From an uncultured Candidatus Saccharibacteria bacterium (GTDB lineage: Bacteria > Patescibacteriota > Minisyncoccia > Phycocordibacterales > UBA2100), in the NCBI GenBank assembly GCA_964528735.1, contig CAZGUV010000002.1, forward strand, positions 23,202 through 83,897: a stretch of DNA of 60,696 nucleotides, written 5' to 3'. The notes below the pieces were generated by a model, which saw only the letters and a list, made by a program, of their open reading frames with translations, was not told the origin of the DNA and ran no database searches. A program made the translations under genes and the position numbers. This document shows, piece after piece, positions 21,293-32,517 of this stretch (positions are counted from its first letter, which is position 1; the number at the start of each line of letters is the position of its first letter).

Positions 21293-22396
21293 TCACAATC
21301 CTTCTTTTCGTAGCTCAGAAATGAGTTCTTTCGCGTGCTTAGAAAGTTTTTTGGGAATCTCAACTGCGATTACCGCGATAAGGTCACCCCGCGTATTGCG
21401 TGATGGAAAGCCTTTTCCTTTTATTCGAACTACGTCTCCATGTGAAGCGCCAGCGTGTACTTGTACAATCACATCTCCATCTGGTGATGGGATGTTGTAT
21501 TCATGTCCAAGCAATGCATCAGTCAGCTTTACAGATAGTTGGTAGACAATGTCACTGCCCACGCGCTCAAAACGAGGGTCTGGCTTTACATGAATTTTTA
21601 TATAGAGATCACCATGGACTCCACCAGAGATTGCCTCACCTTTTCCAGTCATTCGCAATACCTCGCCATCATTGATGCCACCCGGGACTGCAATTTTGAT
21701 CTCTTCTTGTTGTTTGAACACTTTTTGACCCTTACAGGTTGTGCACTTGTCTTTTGGTATGCTCCCGAGCCCATCACATGCATCGCATGTTCGAAGTTGC
21801 GTAAAGACACCAAGAAGTGAGCGCTTTGTCTCTTTTATCTGTCCATTGCTGTTACATGTTGTGCATTGAACAGTTGCAGAGCCTTTCCCACCGCTTCCTT
21901 TGCATTCACCACACTGTGCGATTTTGTTAAGCAGGACAGTACGCTCTGCGCCAAAAACTGAATCCTTAAAAGTGATTTCTATATCGATCGAAATATCTCG
22001 CCCTCGTTTCTGTGCTTTGCGACCCTGATTACGTGTGCCTGCGCCAAAAAATTCACCAAATATGTCACCCAAATCAAACTCGACGCCATTTGCTGAGAAC
22101 GAACCATTGAAACCTTGTCCAGTGAACTGTGAAAAATCAAAACCGTCGAAGCCAGTAAATCCTCCCCCTTGTGGACCGGCACCATTAAATGTCTGTCCAT
22201 ACGTGTCATATTCTGCCCTTCTCTTTTTATCAGAAAGTACAGAGTATGCCTCACTCACTTCCTTAAACTTTCTCTCATCACCACCTGCCTTGTCTGGATG
22301 GTATTGCTGCGCAAGTTTTCTAAATGCTTTTTTTATTTCATCTTCGCTGGCGCTCTTTCGAACACCCAAAATGTCATAGTAGTTCTTTGAGTTCAT
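21293..22396 (-). CDS. dnaJ: Chaperone DnaJ
   Basis: J domain (YYDILGV...HPDK), a G/F-rich region and four CxxCxGxG zinc-finger repeats. Confidence 0.9.
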
Positions 22397-22438
22397 GTAC
22401 GTATTATATGCACTCTGACGTCTGGTGCAATGGTGCTG

Positions 22439-23683
22439 CTACGCTCTCTGTAAAACAGAAACTTTTTGCTTGCCACGTCTCAACAACGCGAGTCCGTTAT
22501 CGTAGAATGTTGCAGAGTCAATCGCGTATGAGGTGTCAGTTATTCGCTCACTATTGTTTATAGATACTGCACCTCCTTCAATAAACTGCCGTGCCTCACG
22601 CTTTGAGCTCGCTAGACCGGTAGAAACAAGGACATCGACAAGCAATTCACCACTTTGAACTCGCGCACACGGCACGTCGCGAACAAATACATCGACATCG
22701 GTGATGCTTTGAATGTCACCATCGCCAAAAAGTATCTTCGCGGTGTCTTCTGCAAGCTGAGCTGATGCAGTACCATGAACAATATCTGTTACTGCATACG
22801 CAAGAGAGCGCTGCGCTGAACGCTCGCCGGGATTTTCTGAGTGCGACATCATGATCTCAGAAATATCATCAAGAGAAATTTCAGTATACAGTTTCAAGAA
22901 GTCCTCAACACTTTCGTCGCCTGTGTTAAACCAAAACTGGTAAAACTGAAATGGGGTGGTTTTTGTTGCATCAAGCCAGACGGCATTTCCTTCGCTCTTG
23001 CCAAATTTTTTGCCCGTTGCCTTATCAATCACGAGTGGAATGGTGAGTGCATAGGTGGTACCACCTTCTTTGCGTCGTATGAGATCTACTCCTGCGATAA
23101 TGTTGCCCCATTGATCAGAGCCACCGATTTGCAGGTCGCAACCATACTCACGATGAAGATGTAGGTAGTCGTATGCCTGGAGTAGCGGGTACGAAAACTC
23201 TGTATAGGTGATTCCATCAGCGCTCTCCATTCGTGCTGCAATAGCATCTTTCTTCACTAATGAGTTTGCAGTGAAATGCTTTCCTATGTCTCTGAGAAAC
23301 TCAATATAGCCGAGCTTACCGAGCCAATCATAGTTGTCCGCAATAGTAAGGTTTGGTACTGCAAGTATGTGTTGTGCCTGAAAACGGATTGATTCTACGT
23401 TTGCAACAATAGTCTCGCGTGGCAAGAGAGGTCGTTCAACATTTGGTTTCGGGTCTCCAATCATTCCAGTGCCGCCGCCCGCAAGAAAAATGACTTTGTG
23501 CCCTGCCTTTGCAAGTGCTCGTAATAGTAGTACCGCAACTAGATTTCCAACCGTCATCGAATCAGATGATGGGTCGACACCGAGGTACACTGTCCTTGGC
23601 TTACCGTCGAGTATCTCTTCAAGGGTCTCTGATGAGTACTGATGTATGTAGCCTCTGGCCTTGAGTTCTTGTGAAAGTGACAT
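22439..23683 (-). CDS. tyrS: Tyrosyl-tRNA synthetase
   Basis: Class I fold with KFGKS (KMSKS) and a C-terminal S4-like domain. Confidence 0.9.
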   Translation of the reverse strand: MSLSQELKARGYIHQYSSETLEEILDGKPRTVYLGVDPSSDSMTVGNLVAVLLLRALAKAGHKVIFLAGGGTGMIGDPKPNVERPLLPRETIVANVESIRFQAQHILAVPNLTIADNYDWLGKLGYIEFLRDIGKHFTANSLVKKDAIAARMESADGITYTEFSYPLLQAYDYLHLHREYGCDLQIGGSDQWGNIIAGVDLIRRKEGGTTYALTIPLVIDKATGKKFGKSEGNAVWLDATKTTPFQFYQFWFNTGDESVEDFLKLYTEISLDDISEIMMSHSENPGERSAQRSLAYAVTDIVHGTASAQLAEDTAKILFGDGDIQSITDVDVFVRDVPCARVQSGELLVDVLVSTGLASSKREARQFIEGGAVSINNSERITDTSYAIDSATFYDNGLALLRRGKQKVSVLQRA

Positions 23684-23721
23684 GGTGGATAGTATACGGC
23701 AGGAATGACCGAAATTAAAGA

Positions 23722-23753
23722 ATGCCGCGAGCGTGTGGGTTCACTCGCGGCAT
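23722..23753 (-). terminator. 10-bp GC-rich hairpin with a weak U-tract, 38 nt upstream of tyrS and 8 nt after the small-ORF stop
   Basis: ATGCCGCGAG-12 nt-CTCGCGGCAT is followed on the minus strand by TCTTTAATTT. Confidence 0.4.
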
Positions 23754-23761
23754 GTCCTCAC

Positions 23762-24016
23762 TTAATGGGTGACTGCCCTCAGTTTGACCACGTCGTCCGG
23801 TACGACACACCTCATGAGCACACTCGCGCATACCCACATTTTCCGGTGTCCACATACTCGAAACGAACGCGGTTCAATCTTTTGGTCAGCGCCCGTTGGG
23901 CGAAGCCACAACACCTCACCAGCCTTGAGTGATAGATGGGTGCGACGACCACGAACAGGACCACGTCCTGAGTACGTCAAATCGCTCCCAAGCACCACTT
24001 TCATAGAACGCATCAT
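23762..24016 (-). CDS. Orphan 84-aa ORF in a ~55% GC islet
   Basis: Good Shine-Dalgarno (AAAGGGGAGAACCAATG). It is bracketed by hairpins and I recognise no family. GC is about 10 points above the flanks. Confidence 0.35.
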   Translation of the reverse strand: MMRSMKVVLGSDLTYSGRGPVRGRRTHLSLKAGEVLWLRPTGADQKIEPRSFRVCGHRKMWVCASVLMRCVVPDDVVKLRAVTH

Positions 24017-24037
24017 TGGTTCTCCCCTTTTCTGATG

Positions 24038-24087
24038 ACCACCACAACCGGTGGTGAAGAAATGTCATAAACAACTCTTCACCACCG
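24038..24087 (-). promoter_or_regulatory. Structured 5' leader: a perfect 12-bp hairpin with an alternative downstream pairing partner
   Basis: CGGTGGTGAAGA (24087-24076) pairs with TCTTCACCACCG (24060-24049). The 3' arm can alternatively pair with GTGGTGGT (24045-24038), about 10 nt before the SD. Confidence 0.4.
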
Positions 24088-24093
24088 ACTGCA

Positions 24094-24123
24094 CAAAAAA
24101 TCCCTGCCGGTCGGCAGGGATTT
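24094..24123 (-). terminator. Strong intrinsic terminator
   Basis: The minus strand reads TCCCTGCC-GACC-GGCAGGGA followed by TTTTTT. Confidence 0.75.
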
Positions 24124-24150
24124 GGAGTCAATGCGGTCAACAACAAATCA

Positions 24151-24216
24151 CTACCGACAGGTAGGTACGATGACGACCACGACTGATTGCTGTTTCATAT
24201 ATCTAGTATGTACCAT
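24151..24216 (-). CDS. Candidate leader micro-ORF (21 aa, or 15 aa from the second ATG): MVHTRYMKQQSVVVVIVPTCR
   Basis: ATG preceded by GAAAGGA, six consecutive Val/Ile codons and a double stop TAG TGA. It lies directly upstream of alternative hairpins and the terminator at 24094-24123. It is below the ORF-track length cut-off. Confidence 0.3.
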   Translation of the reverse strand: MVHTRYMKQQSVVVVIVPTCR

Positions 24217-24267
24217 ATCCTTTCGTTGATGCAAGGGCTGTCTCAAGAGTGTCAGTACTACGTGTAA

Positions 24268-24666
24268 TTACAGCGACCTCCATGCGCCTCCATTAATTGC
24301 AATGATGCCATACTCATTCAACATCTGTACCGCACGGCTACTCCTGGCTCCTGAATGACACACTATGATAATGGTGTCTTGAATAAATTGTAGAGCATCT
24401 AAATGTTTGGAGAGTGTATCGAGTGGTATGTTTTCAGATGCGCTGTGGTGTCCCGTTGCAAACTCTTCTGATGAGCGAACATCAATAATGCGTGCACCGT
24501 TACTCAATAGTTGCTTAGTGATGTATGCACCATGTGTTGCTTGGGTCGCACTACTGTTGCTGTGGGTTTTGCTGCTCAGCTTCTGGAGGGGTTTGCGGCT
24601 CACCGTTGTTTTTTTGCATTGCTGGGCCGATTTCCTGCATAGCCATACCAAGAGCTTCGGTTGCAT
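24268..24666 (-). CDS. Single-domain rhodanese (sulfurtransferase); start uncertain
   Basis: [14 protein letters not shown] and the active-site loop CHSGARS. The rhodanese fold begins only around 24530. The ATG-initiated ORF overlaps the dnaK 3' end by 116 nt, and there is no in-frame ATG after the dnaK stop. Confidence 0.65.
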
Positions 24667-26407
24667 TTTTGATAGAGTCCATATCTTCCTTCGACAATGC
24701 GTCTTTTAGTTCTTGTATCTTTGCTTCAACCTTCTCCTTTACATCGCTTGCAACTTTGTCGGCATGTTCCTTGAGCGACTTTTCGGCTTGATAGACTATT
24801 TGCTCACCAAAGTTTTTGACTTCAACCATTTCCTTCTTCTTTTTGTCGTCTTCTGCGTGAAGTTCGGCCTCTTTTGTCATGCGTTCGATGTCATCTTTTG
24901 AGAGTCCTGAACTACCTTTGATTTCAATAGACTGCTTTTTACCAGTCGTTTTTTCAACAGCCGACACTTTCAATATACCGTTTGCGTCAATGTCAAAAGT
25001 AACTTCAACTTGTGGTGTTCCGCGTGGTGCTGGAGGGATTCCATCAAGTACGAATCTTCCAAGCGATCTGTTATCTGCCGCCATTTCGCGTTCTCCCTGT
25101 ACTACGTTTATCTCGACTGAGGGCTGATTATCAGCTGCTGTTGAGAAAATTTGTGATTTACTCGTCGGTATTGTCGTGTTGCGAGGGATAAGCTTTGTTG
25201 CGATTGAGCCCATTGTCTCGATACCTAGTGAGAGTGGCGTAACGTCCAGCAAGAGAACATCTTTAACGTCGCCTTGGAGGATTCCTGCCTGAATAGCTGC
25301 GCCAACAGCAACAACTTCGTCAGGATTTACGTTTTTGTTCGGCTCTTTTCCAAAGTATGCCTTTACTGCTTCAACAATAGCTGGCATGCGAGTTTGTCCA
25401 CCCACAAGAATGACTTGCTGTATGTCTCCGACCTTGAACGGAGATGCATCAAGTGTTTCCTTGGTGATTTTCATTGATTGCGCAATGTAATCGGATGCAA
25501 GCTCTTCGAGTTTCGCTCGTGAGAGCTTCATGAGAAGGTGTTGAGGGCCATCTGCTGTTGATGTGATGAATGGTATGTTGATCTCTGCTTCAACAGTCGT
25601 AGAAAGTTCTATCTTTGCCTTTTCTGCCGCTTCGTCGATTCTCTGTAGTGCAAGTGCGTCCTTGCCAACATCAATACCTGACATCTTCTTAAACTCGTCG
25701 ACAATGTAACGGATAATTTTCTGATCGATGTCTCGTCCACCCATGTGAGAATCACCTCCAGTTGAGCGTACTTCAATCACACCATCACTTACTTCAAGTA
25801 CTGAGACATCAAACGTTCCTCCACCAAAGTCGTATACAACGACCTTCTCCTCATTCTTAGAGCCAAAGCCGTATGCGAGTGCCGCAGCGGTAGGTTCGTT
25901 TATGATTCGCTTTACATCAAGTCCTGCGATTGCTCCTGCATCCTTAGTTGCCTTTCTCTGGTCATCGTTGAAGTATGCGGGGACAGTAATCACTGCCTCG
26001 GTGATTGTCTCACCAAGCTTCGCTTCAGCATCGGCCTTGAGTTTTGCGAGGACCATTGCTGAAATTTCCTCTGGTCGGTACTCTTTATCTCCGATAACGG
26101 CGATAACGCCACCATCTTTTCCAGCCTTGAGTGTGTATGGGACTGTACTCAAATCCTTCTGAACTTCTGGATCAGAAAACTTGTGTCCAATATAGCGCTT
26201 TATACCGTATATTGTGTTTTTTGGATTTGTGACTGACTGTCTCTTTGCGATGACACCGACTAGCCGGTCGCCATTTTTTGAAATACCAACGACAGAAGGT
26301 GTAGTCCGTGCTCCTTCAATGTTTTCTAATATAGTCGGCTGCCCTGCTTGGATGATAGCCATAGCAGAGTTTGTTGTACCGAGGTCGATTCCAAGTATTT
26401 TTGACAT
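24551..26407 (-). CDS. dnaK: Chaperone DnaK (Hsp70)
   Basis: [19 protein letters not shown] and [11 protein letters not shown] motifs. Length 618 aa. Confidence 0.95.
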
Positions 26408-30107: not shown

Positions 30108-30453
30108 ATTCTATGCGTGCTTCGTCGTGAGCAACGTTTGTTGCTGAGCCGAGCTTAGTAATTCTAAGATAGCCCCCTTCACGCTTTTCGTATCGCGGAG
30201 CTATAACACTGTGGAGCTTCGAGACAGTCTCTGCGTCATTTCCAAGACGTGCAGAAAGGAGTCGTCGTGAAGCAACCGTGTTTTTCTTTGCCGTAGTGAC
30301 CATTTTCTCAACGTAGGGACGTAGCTCCTTTGCTTTAGCAACTGTTGTGACAATAGCCTCCTCTTTTACAAGAGAGCGTGCAAGAGAGCGCATCAACGCT
30401 AGTCTTTGATTTGTCGGTCTTCCGAAGTTTCTTGTTTTGTTGTGGTGTTTCAT
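30100..30453 (-). CDS. rplQ: 50S ribosomal protein L17
   Basis: MKHHNKTRNFGRPTNQRLALMRSL N-terminus. Confidence 0.9.
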   Translation of the reverse strand: MKHHNKTRNFGRPTNQRLALMRSLARSLVKEEAIVTTVAKAKELRPYVEKMVTTAKKNTVASRRLLSARLGNDAETVSKLHSVIAPRYEKREGGYLRITKLGSATNVAHDEARIEFV

Positions 30454-31467: not shown

Positions 31468-32064
31468 CTATCGTGTATAGAACTCAAATATCATCGCGAG
31501 ATCAAACATTGATTCGGCAGATTTGAAAACCGGCTCTGTAGTAATCTTCGCCTCCTTCTTGTCAGTGTCTACGGTGAGCCATGATGCTGGGTGTGTCCAA
31601 TCTGCGTTCTGAAAGAGAACACCATCGCGACTTCCTTGTCTGACTCCGATGATGTCATTTACTTTGAGTGCCTGCGAAGGTGTCGTTATTCTTCGTCCGT
31701 TGATTGTTATATGTCCGTGAGCAACCATTTGTCGTGCCATTCGTCGAGTCTTTGCAAGTCCAAGGCGGTATATCGCATTATCAGCTCGCATCTCGAGTGC
31801 CGCGAACAATGCTGCTGGTGAATCTTTTTCGTTGATTGTCTGGTGAATGTATTTTTGGAGTTGCTTCTCTGTTATGCCATACGCAAAACGCACCTTCTGT
31901 TTCTCCTTAAACTGCTTTCCGTAGTCAGAGAGCTGTGATGGTCTCTTTCCTTTCTTACTGTTTTTTGAGCGTGCCTCTGAAAGAGCAAACTTCTGAGTCT
32001 GTGTTTTTTCGAAGATTGGTGCTCCGAGTCGCTTTGCAAGTTTGAATCGTGGTCCTAGTTTCAT
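31468..32064 (-). CDS. rpsD: 30S ribosomal protein S4
   Basis: S4 N-terminal domain and the S4 RNA-binding domain (RADNAIYRLGLAKTRRMARQMVAHGHITING). Confidence 0.95.
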   Translation of the reverse strand: MKLGPRFKLAKRLGAPIFEKTQTQKFALSEARSKNSKKGKRPSQLSDYGKQFKEKQKVRFAYGITEKQLQKYIHQTINEKDSPAALFAALEMRADNAIYRLGLAKTRRMARQMVAHGHITINGRRITTPSQALKVNDIIGVRQGSRDGVLFQNADWTHPASWLTVDTDKKEAKITTEPVFKSAESMFDLAMIFEFYTR

Positions 32065-32082
32065 AGTGTCGTTCTTAGAAGA

Positions 32083-32517
32083 TTAGATGCGGCGAGGCTT
32101 AGGTGCTCGAGGTCCATTGTGAGGAACTGGAGTATCATCTACGATTTTGGTAATTCCTATGCCCTTTCCTGCAAACGATCGTAGTGCTGATTCACGTCCT
32201 GAGCCAACTCCACGGATTACTACCGAGACGTCCTTCACACCCATGAGTTGTGCCTTTTCTCCAATAAGTTCACCAACTTTAGCCGCTGCAAAAGGAGTTC
32301 CTTTCTTCGCACCAGCAAATCCAAGTGCGCCCGATGATGACCACATGACTACGTTACCGTTTTCATCGGTAAGAGCCACTTTAGTGTTGTTGTATGTAGC
32401 CTGAATGGTAAGTATGCCGCGAACAATTTTCTTTGCTCCTGCTTTTGAAAGTGCGCGTGATCGAAGTTCTCGATCGACACCCTTTCCTGTTTGCTTGATG
32501 ATTCTCTTCTTTCCCAT
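32083..32517 (-). CDS. rpsK: 30S ribosomal protein S11
   Basis: ATYNNTKVALTDENGN...SSGALGFAGAKKGTPFAA and DDTPVPHNGPR. Confidence 0.95.
   Translation of the reverse strand: MGKKRIIKQTGKGVDRELRSRALSKAGAKKIVRGILTIQATYNNTKVALTDENGNVVMWSSSGALGFAGAKKGTPFAAAKVGELIGEKAQLMGVKDVSVVIRGVGSGRESALRSFAGKGIGITKIVDDTPVPHNGPRAPKPRRI

What the first reader, a model, noticed from the sequence alone, without database searches (positions are those of the whole stretch)
24094..24216. Val/Ile-rich micro-ORF with classic attenuator geometry (1:2, 2:3, 3:4) downstream of the rhodanese gene
On the minus strand a micro-ORF, ATG...MVHTRYMKQQSVVVVIVPTCR-TAG-TGA (24216-24151), carries six consecutive Val/Ile codons (GTC GTG GTC GTC ATC GTA). 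Its last codons form a small hairpin, CTACC-TGTC-GGTAG (segments 1:2), with the stop codon inside segment 2. Segment 2 (GTCGGTAG) can alternatively pair over 8 bp, including one G-U pair, with CTGCCGAC. That sequence is the 5' arm and loop of the strong terminator TCCCTGCC-GACC-GGCAGGGA-TTTTTT (3:4). Ribosome stalling in the Val/Ile run would therefore favour the 2:3 antiterminator, and reaching the stop codon would favour the terminator. This is the textbook ilv/leu-type leader-peptide logic. From memory, the peptide also resembles the enterobacterial ilvL leader (...VVVIIIPPCG...). No branched-chain amino-acid genes follow; what follows is an orphan 84-aa ORF and then tyrS. It would be either a novel regulatory target or a chance ORF in the dnaK-rhodanese 3' UTR.
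Basis: inference. Interest (0 to 1): 0.6.

Follow-up and report, generated by a model that had tools for sequence, protein, structure and literature searches.

The report
Leaderless Val/Ile leader-peptide attenuator
The tiny Val/Ile-rich reading frame and terminator behind dnaK are very probably a real amino-acid-sensing transcription switch, one of five sister switches in this 0.9-Mb genome, and this one controls an orphan 84-residue protein rather than a biosynthetic operon.

Summary

- **Family.** A covariance model finds five paralogous cassettes in this genome (Val/Ile, Met, Leu, Ile, Phe/Tyr codon runs) and more in related genomes.
- **Cognate targets in paralogs.** The Ile copy sits directly before ridA-ilvA. 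The Phe/Tyr copy lies upstream of aroA-aroK and aroC.
- **Shared design.** Most copies have a promoter whose -10 box ends 6 nt before the ATG, so the micro-ORF is leaderless. A codon run follows, then a stop codon inside or just after an antiterminator arm, then a terminator.
- **Corrections.** The ORF starts at 24198 (MKQQSVVVVIVPTCR), not 24216. The 2:3 helix has 14 bp (-17.3 kcal/mol), against -18.0 for the terminator.
- **Support.** Both helices covary across the family, and ribosome-masked folds reproduce the attenuation logic.
- **Target.** ORF84 shows 9 synonymous and 1 non-synonymous change against a conspecific strain, so it is a real gene, but it has no confident homologue. ilvC and ilvD were not found.
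- **Age.** The cassette is absent from the closest sampled species.

No Rfam family matches. Earlier notes of this scan describe the same kind of element in other Saccharibacteria-like genomes. No transcript data could be obtained.

The parts
24229..24234 (-). -35 box TTGCAT of the cassette's own promoter
   Evidence: The TTGNNN box aligns with the -35 boxes of the paralogs and is unchanged in the conspecific strain L160.
24205..24210 (-). -10 box CATACT. It lies 18 nt after the -35 box and ends exactly 6 nt before the ATG at 24198.
   Evidence: Ten of 17 family members have a TAnnnT-like -10 box ending 6 nt before the ATG. The box is unchanged in L160, whereas the alternative TACATA is mutated there.
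24151..24198 (-). Leader micro-ORF, probably leaderless: MKQQSVVVVIVPTCR plus TAG.
   Evidence: Against strain L160 there are 2 synonymous and 0 non-synonymous differences.
24166..24183 (-). Regulatory codon run GTC GTG GTC GTC ATC GTA (V V V V I V)
   Evidence: It is unique among 5,873 short ORFs of the genome. Paralogs carry MMM, LLLLL, IIAIII or FFFYF at the same relative position.
24174..24186 (-). Segment 1': the Val-codon region. In ribosome-free RNA it pairs with the antiterminator loop (about 24139-24128), acting as an anti-antiterminator. The small 1:2 hairpin lies at 24164-24151.
   Evidence: MFE fold (-39.3 kcal/mol, terminator formed). A G-to-A change in strain L160 turns a U-G pair of this helix into U-A.
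24144..24158 (-). Segment 2, the 5' arm of the antiterminator: GUCGGUAGUGAUUUG. It contains the stop codon UAG.
   Evidence: Covariation.
24110..24124 (-). Segment 3: CAAAUCCCUGCCGAC. It pairs either with segment 2 or with segment 4.
24095..24122 (-). Intrinsic terminator (3:4): AAUCCCUGCC-GACC-GGCAGGGAUU, whose last two U overlap a U6 tract. It is probably also the terminator of the dnaK-rhodanese unit.
   Evidence: -17.6 kcal/mol; -18.0; covariation.
24044..24092 (-). 18-bp hairpin in the spacer between the terminator and ORF84. Its 5' arm (GTCGGTGGTGA) resembles segment 2. Role unknown.
   Evidence: region -35.9 kcal/mol. Unchanged in strain L160.
23762..24016 (-). ORF84, the regulated gene: an orphan 84-residue protein with Shine-Dalgarno sequence AAAGGGGAG at 24030-24022
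   Evidence: Against strain L160 there are 9 synonymous and 1 non-synonymous codon differences. The other two frames give 0 and 1 synonymous of 9. No Pfam match. No confident homologue.
23722..23753 (-). Terminator closing the ORF84 unit (12-bp stem, tail TCTTTAATTT)

Best explanation
This is a ribosome-mediated (leader-peptide) transcription attenuator that senses charged tRNA-Val and tRNA-Ile.

**Proposed mechanism.**

1. A promoter (TTGCAT, 18 nt, CATACT) starts transcription at or next to the ATG at 24198. The 15-codon ORF MKQQSVVVVIVPTCR is therefore translated as a leaderless mRNA.
2. When Val and Ile are plentiful, the ribosome runs to the UAG, which lies inside segment 2. It covers that arm, so segment 3 pairs with segment 4. 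RNA polymerase terminates at the U-tract (24100-24095).
3. When the ribosome stalls with one of the first Val codons in its A site, segment 2 is free and forms a 14-bp antiterminator with segment 3. Transcription continues into ORF84.
4. Without any ribosome, the Val-codon region pairs with the antiterminator loop and the terminator forms. The same hairpin can therefore also end read-through transcripts from dnaK-rhodanese.

**Origin.** The cassette (promoter, leader, attenuator, ORF84, terminator; about 584 nt) is one of five paralogous cassettes in the genome. It is a lineage-specific addition between rhodanese and tyrS.

**Shown here:** the sequence anatomy, family membership, covariation of both helices, the energetics, purifying selection on ORF84, and cognate biosynthetic genes behind two paralogs.

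**Inferred:** the transcription start site, translation of the micro-ORF, the response to Val/Ile supply, and what ORF84 does.
For: **Family.**
- Model R1 finds five copies in G000 and copies in G001, G002, G133 and G136, with weaker hits in G077 and G082. Model R2 confirms five copies in G000.
- The micro-ORFs read MQNHGGHSVAMMMRIPVCR..SLLLLLSPHTR, MTVHGGHSIIAIIIPSVGRSL, MTLSQTFFFYFTTPKTERIAL and MKQQSVVVVIVPTCR.

**Cognate targets in paralogs.**
- The Ile copy lies 22 nt upstream of ridA, which is followed by ilvA.
- The Phe/Tyr copy lies upstream of a 71-aa ORF, a 381-aa ORF, an aroA-aroK fusion and aroC.
- The Phe/Tyr copy also gets a sub-threshold hit to Rfam Phe_leader (33 bits, E = 0.02).

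**Promoter geometry.** In 10 of 17 members the -10 box ends 6 nt before the ATG.

**Structure.**
- The antiterminator duplex has z = -6.4 against shuffles for this copy, and p < 0.05 in 17 of 18 members.
- On a MAFFT alignment, 8 of 14 antiterminator pairs show changes on both sides, and none of 500 shuffles reaches the observed values. Cells paired are 77.9%, against 30-55% when the partners are slid.
- In the terminator, 5 of 10 pairs change on both sides, and 88% of cells are paired.

**Energies.** 1:2 is -5.7, 2:3 is -17.3 and 3:4 is -18.0 kcal/mol.

**Masked folds.**
- Footprint with the A site at Val codons 1-4: the antiterminator is the MFE structure.
- Footprint at the stop codon, or no ribosome: the terminator forms.

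**Selection against conspecific strain L160.**
- Micro-ORF: 2 synonymous and 0 non-synonymous differences.
- ORF84: 9 synonymous and 1 non-synonymous.
- The ATG, -10 box, codon run, segment 2, segment 3 and terminator are unchanged.

**Rarity.** This is the only ORF with six consecutive V/I codons among 5,873 short ORFs.
Against: - The start site, premature 3' ends and any response to amino acids are therefore untested.
- **No visible link between target and amino acid.** ORF84 is an orphan of unknown function and is itself Val-rich (12 of 84 residues). ilvC and ilvD were not found in the 98%-complete assembly.
- **Weak promoter.** It matches the consensus at 7 of 12 positions, with CATACT as the -10 box.
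- **Not conserved at this locus.** G002 has a gap of only about 40 nt here, and G001 has unrelated sequence. All conservation evidence comes from paralogs and from one 96-98% identical strain.
- **An uncertain stall register.** With a ribosome stalled at the very first Val codon, segment 1 could pair with segment 4 and extend the hairpin up to the U-tract. Which stall positions relieve termination is therefore uncertain.
Confidence: 0.8

Rival explanations
1. RNA-only element. The roughly 105-nt transcript is a small RNA, or a switch operated by a protein or ligand. The open frame and the codon run are incidental.
For: - A promoter plus a terminator about 105 nt apart is also the anatomy of an sRNA gene.
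- The untranslated spacer between the stop codon and the terminator is 100% identical between the Met copy and the metagenomic contig L058, in a region that is otherwise about 76% identical. A simple attenuator does not require this.
- Terminated attenuator RNAs are known to act in trans in Sinorhizobium (PMC6614838).
Against: - The 5' halves of the paralogs differ in sequence and predicted fold, yet keep an ATG 6 nt after the -10 box, an open frame, a homo-amino-acid run at the same distance from the stop, and a stop in or just after segment 2.
- The identity of the run matches the downstream genes in the Ile and Phe/Tyr copies.
- No Rfam family matches.
Confidence: 0.1
2. Recently duplicated cassette that no longer regulates. 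The hairpin serves only as the dnaK-rhodanese terminator, and ORF84 is expressed, if at all, constitutively.
For: - The cassette is absent from the same locus in G002 and G001.
- Its promoter is the weakest of those with the conserved 6-nt spacing (7 of 12).
- The target is an orphan.
- No terminator lies between rhodanese and the leader.
Against: - Both alternative helices are intact. Relative to the Met paralog they carry a three-way compensatory change: A-U, U-A against G-C, C-G.
- The leader and ORF84 are under purifying selection between strains.
- ORF84 keeps a strong Shine-Dalgarno sequence and its own terminator.
Confidence: 0.07
3. Chance ORF in a 3' UTR next to an ordinary terminator.
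For: The hairpin sequence CCTGCCGACCGGCAGG followed by a T-run recurs by convergence in 70 unrelated metagenomic contigs. The terminator alone is therefore not diagnostic.
Against: - The V/I run is unique among 5,873 short ORFs.
- The 2:3 duplex has z = -6.4.
- The element belongs to a family with covariation.
Confidence: 0.03

Closest known systems
Enterobacterial branched-chain leaders: ilvL of ilvGMEDA, ivbL of ilvBN, and leuL (classical ribosome-mediated attenuation; established knowledge)
   Same: - A short ORF with a run of Val/Ile (or Leu) codons.
- Mutually exclusive 1:2, 2:3 and 3:4 pairings.
- A stop codon placed so that a terminating ribosome masks segment 2.
- An intrinsic terminator before the regulated gene.
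- The tail SVVVVIVPTCR recalls the IlvL tail. This is from memory and was not tested.
   Different: - No Rfam leader model matches.
- The ORF is probably leaderless and lacks a Shine-Dalgarno sequence.
- The regulated gene is an orphan 84-residue protein.
- The genome lacks detectable ilvC and ilvD.
- The organism has a 0.9-Mb genome.
- Homology to ilvL is not supported, so the similarity is best read as convergence.
Mycobacterial polycysteine leaderless short ORFs (Canestrari et al., bioRxiv 10.1101/834739)
   Same: - Leaderless sensory short ORFs with a run of one amino acid.
- Several loci in one genome share the design (the authors' 'ribulon').
- Ribosome stalling reshapes downstream RNA structure.
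   Different: [quoted passage not shown] That is translational control.
- Here the switch is an antiterminator against an intrinsic terminator.
- Here the copies carry different amino acids, not one.
Actinobacterial attenuators: ilvBNC, leuA, trpE and aroF leader peptides of Corynebacterium glutamicum (PMC11857589, PMC3890552, PMC1262725)
   Same: Leader peptides with three-hairpin attenuators upstream of amino-acid genes, outside the Proteobacteria.
   Different: - Those control biosynthetic operons, and each is a separate family.
- Here five paralogs share one RNA scaffold, and three of them precede tiny orphan ORFs.
Rfam RF01859 Phe_leader
   Same: The Phe/Tyr paralog (G000 C8:4212-4322) aligns over the full model at 33.2 bits, E = 0.02.
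   Different: The score is below the gathering threshold of 55 bits. The window copy gives no match at all.

Membership tests
Ribosome-mediated leader-peptide transcription attenuators (mechanistic class) | Short ORF with clustered codons for the sensed amino acid | tested here: met
   Six consecutive Val/Ile codons. The run is unique among 5,873 short ORFs.
Ribosome-mediated leader-peptide transcription attenuators (mechanistic class) | Intrinsic terminator between the leader ORF and the regulated gene | tested here: met
   10-bp GC-rich stem plus U6 tract, -18.0 kcal/mol. ORF84 starts 78 nt downstream.
Ribosome-mediated leader-peptide transcription attenuators (mechanistic class) | Antiterminator mutually exclusive with the terminator, supported by covariation | tested here: met
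   14-bp 2:3 helix, -17.3 kcal/mol. z = -6.4 against shuffles. 8 of 14 pairs show changes on both sides, and 0 of 500 shuffles reach the observed values.
Ribosome-mediated leader-peptide transcription attenuators (mechanistic class) | Geometry: a ribosome at the stop codon masks segment 2, and a ribosome stalled in the run leaves it free | tested here: met
   Footprint-constrained folds. The exact footprint limits are assumed.
Ribosome-mediated leader-peptide transcription attenuators (mechanistic class) | The leader ORF is translated | tested here: inconclusive
   There is no Shine-Dalgarno sequence. The -10 box ends 6 nt before the ATG in 10 of 17 members, which suggests leaderless initiation. 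Between strains there are 2 synonymous and 0 non-synonymous changes. There are no ribosome data.
Ribosome-mediated leader-peptide transcription attenuators (mechanistic class) | The regulated genes serve supply of the sensed amino acid | tested here: not met
   For this copy the target is orphan ORF84, and ilvC and ilvD were not found. The feature is met for paralogs: Ile before ridA-ilvA, and Phe/Tyr upstream of aroA-aroK and aroC.
Ribosome-mediated leader-peptide transcription attenuators (mechanistic class) | Premature termination is relieved by amino-acid limitation | not testable with these tools
Rfam leader families (Leu_leader RF00512, Trp_leader RF00513, His_leader RF00514, Thr_leader RF00506, Phe_leader RF01859) | Covariance-model score at or above the gathering threshold | tested here: not met
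   No leader family matches at E <= 1 in 22000-26000. Only the Phe/Tyr paralog gives a sub-threshold Phe_leader hit.
Enterobacterial ilvL (ilvGMEDA leader) | Sequence homology, and ilv genes downstream | tested here: not met
   No ilv genes follow. The peptide resemblance is recalled from memory and was not tested.
T-box leader (considered because tyrS lies downstream) | Match to Rfam T-box RF00230 | tested here: not met
   No match at E <= 1. tyrS has its own TATACT box 7 nt before its ATG.
Against model R2 the window copy scores 67.9 bits, E = 4.7e-18. It was one of the 16 training sequences.

The most novel reading that the evidence does not exclude
The five cassettes form a modular set of amino-acid shortage alarms in a reduced, probably host-dependent bacterium. 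After duplication, one RNA scaffold is re-aimed at another amino acid simply by exchanging the codon run. Here the scaffold is closest to a Met-type copy. Most copies do not switch on biosynthesis. They switch on dedicated, fast-evolving micro-proteins (ORF84 and the 60-90-residue ORFs behind the Leu and Met copies). Those proteins would act as amino-acid-specific starvation effectors, for example in scavenging or in manipulating a host.
Probability: 0.2. Interest if true: 0.85.

Novelty: new variant of a known kind. Interest (0 to 1): 0.62.

Why it matters
Leader-peptide attenuation is textbook biology for the amino-acid operons of free-living bacteria. Here the same logic appears five times in a 0.9-Mb genome that lacks detectable ilvC and ilvD.

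Three features stand out:

- The leader ORFs are probably leaderless.
- All copies are built on one shared RNA scaffold.
- Three of the five copies precede tiny orphan proteins rather than enzymes.

That gives a direct, testable handle on how very reduced bacteria sense the supply of individual amino acids. It also marks a set of unknown micro-proteins as probable starvation-response genes.

There is a practical consequence for annotation. The 48-nt leader ORF and ORF84 are real features that gene callers and Rfam currently miss or leave unnamed.

Tried and rejected
- **Rfam.** A cmscan of 22000-26000 at E <= 1 gave only two spurious eukaryotic hits, with no leader family and no T-box upstream of tyrS.
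- **BLAST in relatives.** BLAST of the 877-nt region against 40 related genomes found nothing outside G000. It did reveal the second copy on contig 11.
- **Pattern scan of GTDB genomes.** The exact pattern CTGTCGGTAG..CTGCCGACCGGC gave 6 hits, all chance matches inside high-GC sequence without terminators.
- **Terminator-only scans.** Metagenome and viral scans gave 72 hits. Nearly all are convergent generic terminators, and only L058 is a true homologue, of the Met copy.
- **A Met leader to metK link.** Rejected. metK lies 1.5 kb downstream of the Met copy, but an opposite-strand GDSL-lipase gene lies between them.
- **ORF84 homology.**
  - No Pfam match.
  - Only its own strain variant was found among 5.8 billion clusters.
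  - A full HMMER scan gave two weak hits. One is to a 20-residue motif repeated in a PPC-domain protein and the other is to a repeat-rich Ig-domain protein. The E-values are inflated by the repeats.
  - The single-sequence AlphaFold model is all-beta but has pLDDT 48, so no fold search was run.
- **A shared family for the downstream micro-proteins.**
  - Leu-type against Met-type profiles gave hhalign E = 0.004 but only 8% probability.
  - ORF84 against the Leu-type profile was not significant.
  - A colinear 'AGE ... LLxxGxV' pattern is visible in the alignment but is unproven.
- **Literature.** Searches found no paper on attenuators in CPR or Saccharibacteria.
Full report
**1. The observation**

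- The ORF ATG(24216)...TAG(24151) is followed by TGA.
- The codons GTC GTG GTC GTC ATC GTA are there.
- The small hairpin CTACC-TGTC-GGTAG is there.
- GTCGGTAG is complementary to CTGCCGAC.
- The terminator is TCCCTGCC-GACC-GGCAGGGA followed by T6.

The gene order on this strand is dnaK (24551-26407), a rhodanese-domain gene (to 24268), the element, an 84-codon ORF (24016-23762), a second terminator (23753-23722), tyrS (23683-22439) and dnaJ. An Rfam scan of 22000-26000 at E <= 1 gives no leader family and no T-box.

**2. It is not alone**

A BLAST of the region against the genome found a 68-nt, 74%-identical second copy near the end of contig 11. That copy is also preceded by an in-frame micro-ORF ending ...PVCR-TAG, but with ATG ATG ATG where the window has the Val/Ile run. 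The window lies in a 904,646-bp assembly of 33 contigs that is 98% complete.

A terminator-only pattern scan of metagenomes returned 70 contigs. Nearly all are unrelated genes that happen to use the same hairpin. One contig, L058, is syntenic with contig 11 at about 76% identity. It keeps the Met micro-ORF and is 97% identical from the Met codons to the U-tract.

I built a covariance model from these three sequences, with the antiterminator as its structure. It found three further copies in this genome, several in both same-genus genomes, and copies in another genus of the family. A second model built from 16 members confirms five copies in G000. It also gives hits in 12 of 150 genomes sampled across the order, and some of those are plain terminators.

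The micro-ORFs in G000 read as follows:

| Copy | Micro-ORF |
|---|---|
| Val/Ile (window) | MKQQSVVVVIVPTCR |
| Met | MQNHGGHSVAMMMRIPVCR |
| Leu | MHTAQSQSLLLLLSPHTR |
| Ile | MTVHGGHSIIAIIIPSVGRSL |
| Phe/Tyr | MTLSQTFFFYFTTPKTERIAL |

Relatives add MKHTTVLLVVVTQNAGR, MTHAGLLVVLLTHSADR, ..FFWFYF.., ..FVWYWF.. and a Thr-rich MLRVLTTTTTNTTTTRFGR.

**3. Do the runs mean anything?**

- The Ile copy ends 22 nt before ridA, which is followed by ilvA (threonine dehydratase with its C-terminal regulatory domain).
- The Phe/Tyr copy follows rpsT. It lies upstream of a 71-aa ORF, a 381-aa ORF, an aroA-aroK fusion and aroC.
- The Phe/Tyr copy also gives a full-length but sub-threshold hit to Rfam Phe_leader (33.2 bits against 55; E = 0.02).
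- In G002 the orthologous Phe/Tyr leader lies about 1 kb upstream of aroA.

So the amino acid encoded in the run matches the pathway downstream wherever that pathway is recognisable. In this genome, the window's ORF is the only one of 5,873 short ATG-ORFs (12-30 codons, six frames) with six consecutive Val/Ile codons.

**4. Anatomy shared by the family**

Ten of 17 members have a TTGNNN box, a 16-18-nt spacer, and a TAnnnT-like -10 box that ends exactly 6 nt before the ATG. One more has 7 nt. Transcription would therefore begin at or next to the A of the ATG, which is the signature of a leaderless mRNA. None has a Shine-Dalgarno sequence in front of the micro-ORF.

In the window the promoter is TTGCAT (24234-24229), 18 nt, CATACT (24210-24205), 6 nt, ATG (24198).

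The conspecific strain L160 supports this reading.
- The alternative -10 box TACATA is mutated there, while CATACT is intact.
- The ATG at 24198 is kept although the two bases before it change.

The Phe/Tyr copies are an exception. They start 3-4 nt after the stop codon of rpsT and have no promoter of their own.

**5. The switch**

Energies for the window copy:

| Structure | kcal/mol |
|---|---|
| 1:2 hairpin | -5.7 |
| 2:3 extended to 14 bp (GUCGGUAG.GAUUUG with CAAAUC.CUGCCGAC) | -17.3 |
| 3:4 terminator | -18.0 |

The antiterminator is therefore a fair competitor.

- **Shuffle control.** Against 300 dinucleotide shuffles of the upstream 62 nt, the best duplex with segment 3 is -20.9 against -8.8 +/- 1.9 kcal/mol (z = -6.4). 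Seventeen of 18 members give p < 0.05. The exception is one member for which my terminator call was wrong.
- **A three-way compensatory change.** Between the window copy and the Met copy, the base of segment 3 that is U in one and C in the other is matched by A/G in segment 2 and by A/G in segment 4.
- **Antiterminator covariation.** On a MAFFT alignment of 16 members that was not fitted to any structure, 77.9% of cells are paired, against 30-55% when partners are slid by 1-3 columns. Eight of 14 pairs change on both sides, and 0 of 500 shuffles reach the observed values.
- **Terminator covariation.** 88% of cells are paired, and 5 of 10 pairs change on both sides.

Folds with a 28-nt stretch blocked to mimic a ribosome give the textbook outcomes:

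| Ribosome position | MFE structure |
|---|---|
| A site on Val codons 1-4 | Antiterminator |
| At the stop codon | Terminator |
| On the last Val codon (GUA) | Terminator |
| No ribosome | Val-codon region pairs with the antiterminator loop, and the terminator forms (-39.3 kcal/mol) |

The no-ribosome state means that read-through transcripts from dnaK-rhodanese would simply terminate here. In those transcripts the ATG is internal and lacks a Shine-Dalgarno sequence. No other terminator separates rhodanese from the element.

One caveat. With a ribosome on the very first Val codon, segment 1 is free and can extend the hairpin towards the U-tract. The productive stall positions therefore cannot be fixed by computation.

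**6. What is regulated**

ORF84 has a good Shine-Dalgarno sequence (AAAGGGGAG) and its own terminator. A contig from another sample carries the same locus at 96-98% identity (L160, Logan assembly of SRR29476917). Codon differences against it:

| Region | Synonymous | Non-synonymous |
|---|---|---|
| ORF84, annotated frame | 9 | 1 |
| ORF84, frame +1 | 0 | 9 |
| ORF84, frame +2 | 1 | 8 |
| Micro-ORF | 2 | 0 |

ORF84 is therefore a real protein-coding gene under purifying selection. Its function is unknown.
- It has no Pfam family.
- It has no relatives beyond its strain variant.
- It gives only weak hits, one to a repeated 20-residue motif in a PPC-domain protein and one to a repeat-rich Ig-domain protein.
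- The AlphaFold model is all-beta but of low confidence (pLDDT 48).

tyrS has its own TATACT box 7 nt before its ATG, as in G002. It is probably independent of the switch. The genome has no detectable ilvD or ilvC (both families ring in all 14 control genomes). It has one class-IV aminotransferase. The switch therefore cannot be feeding back on a complete Val/Ile pathway.

**7. History**

- In the closest sampled species (G002; DnaK 88% identical, 90% by tblastn), rhodanese and tyrS are about 40 nt apart. G001 has about 650 nt of unrelated sequence there.
- The 584-nt cassette is therefore a lineage-specific insertion.
- G002 has a Val/Leu-type cassette elsewhere, next to the homologue of a G000 contig-22 gene. 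G000 has no cassette there.
- From segment 2 to the terminator, the window copy is most similar to the Met copy (73%). It is 70% identical to a Leu/Val copy of another genus and 47-65% identical to the other types.
- The cassettes thus move or turn over, and the codon run seems to be exchangeable on a conserved scaffold. This last point is an inference from short sequences.

**8. Comparison with what is known**

Mechanistically this is classical ribosome-mediated attenuation, as in the ilvL, ivbL, leuL, trpL and pheL leaders. It is not a member of any Rfam leader family. The recalled resemblance to IlvL cannot be taken as homology.

The leaderless sensory ORF recalls the mycobacterial polycysteine short ORFs, which act on translation rather than through a terminator (10.1101/834739). 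Leader peptides upstream of trpE, leuA, ilvB and aroF are known in Corynebacterium (PMC3890552, PMC11857589).

I found no paper describing attenuators in CPR, Patescibacteria or Saccharibacteria in the library.

After I had reached this reading, a look-up showed that earlier notes of this scan describe the same kind of leaderless, amino-acid-specific cassettes in other Saccharibacteria-like genomes, often in front of orphan micro-proteins. Those are unchecked AI notes. They agree with what I found here, but I do not count them as evidence.

I did not verify the taxon of this genome. The label 'CPR/Saccharibacteria-like' rests on genome size and on those notes.

**9. Verdict**

The main open points are experimental: the transcription start site, translation of the micro-ORF, the response to Val/Ile supply, and the role of ORF84.

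Noticed in passing
window 24495-24534 (-): Relative to conspecific strain L160, the window's rhodanese gene lacks one base near its 5' end (CTAAGCAAC against CTGCAGCAAC). The ATG at 24533 therefore runs into a stop after 9 codons, and the rhodanese domain is in another frame. This is a frameshift, a downstream TTG start, or an assembly error.
   Followed up: partly
window 24044-24092 (-): An 18-bp hairpin lies directly after the attenuator's U-tract and before the ORF84 Shine-Dalgarno sequence. Its 5' arm (GTCGGTGGTGA) resembles segment 2 (GTCGGTAGTGA). It may be a relic of a tandem attenuator or a second control element. It is unchanged in the conspecific strain.
   Followed up: partly
window 23684-23696 (-): tyrS has a TATACT box ending 7 nt before its ATG and no Shine-Dalgarno sequence, and the same holds in G002. 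Leaderless mRNAs may be common in this genome.
   Followed up: no
G000 C8:4212-4322 (-), L137: The Phe/Tyr leader starts 4 nt after the rpsT stop codon and has no promoter of its own, and the same layout is seen in G001 and G002. It may be translated by coupling to rpsT. It gives a sub-threshold hit to Rfam Phe_leader.
   Followed up: partly
G000 C11:20910-21021 (+), L134: An Ile-rich leader (MTVHGGHSIIAIIIPSVGRSL) lies directly upstream of ridA-ilvA, in a genome without detectable ilvC or ilvD. What the 2-oxobutyrate made by IlvA is used for is unclear.
   Followed up: partly
L108, L112, L127, L132, L126, L111 (downstream of the Met and Leu leaders): The 60-90-residue ORFs behind the Leu and Met leaders, and possibly ORF84, share a colinear pattern: a mid-protein 'AGE/D-x-hhh-E' motif and a C-terminal 'LLxxGxV' motif. 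Leu-type against Met-type profiles give hhalign E = 0.004 but low probability. They may form a family of attenuator-controlled micro-proteins.
   Followed up: partly
G000 C11:29648-30054, compared with L058: G000 has a roughly 400-nt insertion carrying a 79-codon ORF between the Met attenuator and the conserved 73-residue ORF. L058 and G002 lack it. Homologous ORFs follow Met-type leaders in G133 and G136.
   Followed up: partly
G001 C20 (L128: 232-333 and 1501-1612, -): Two attenuator cassettes lie in tandem about 1.2 kb apart. One is FFWFYF-type, and the second has a less clear micro-ORF.
   Followed up: no
G200 C16:9887-9974 (L152): A Thr-rich leaderless micro-ORF (MLRVLTTTTTNTTTTRFGR) with the same scaffold occurs in a different family of the order. 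The design therefore covers more amino acids than the five seen in G000.
   Followed up: no
G000 C10 end (32060-32325) and C11 end (about 30297-30359): L058 shows that an ogt/MGMT-type methyltransferase gene lies upstream of the Met cassette. In G000 this gene is split across the ends of contigs 10 and 11, so the two contigs are probably adjacent.
   Followed up: no
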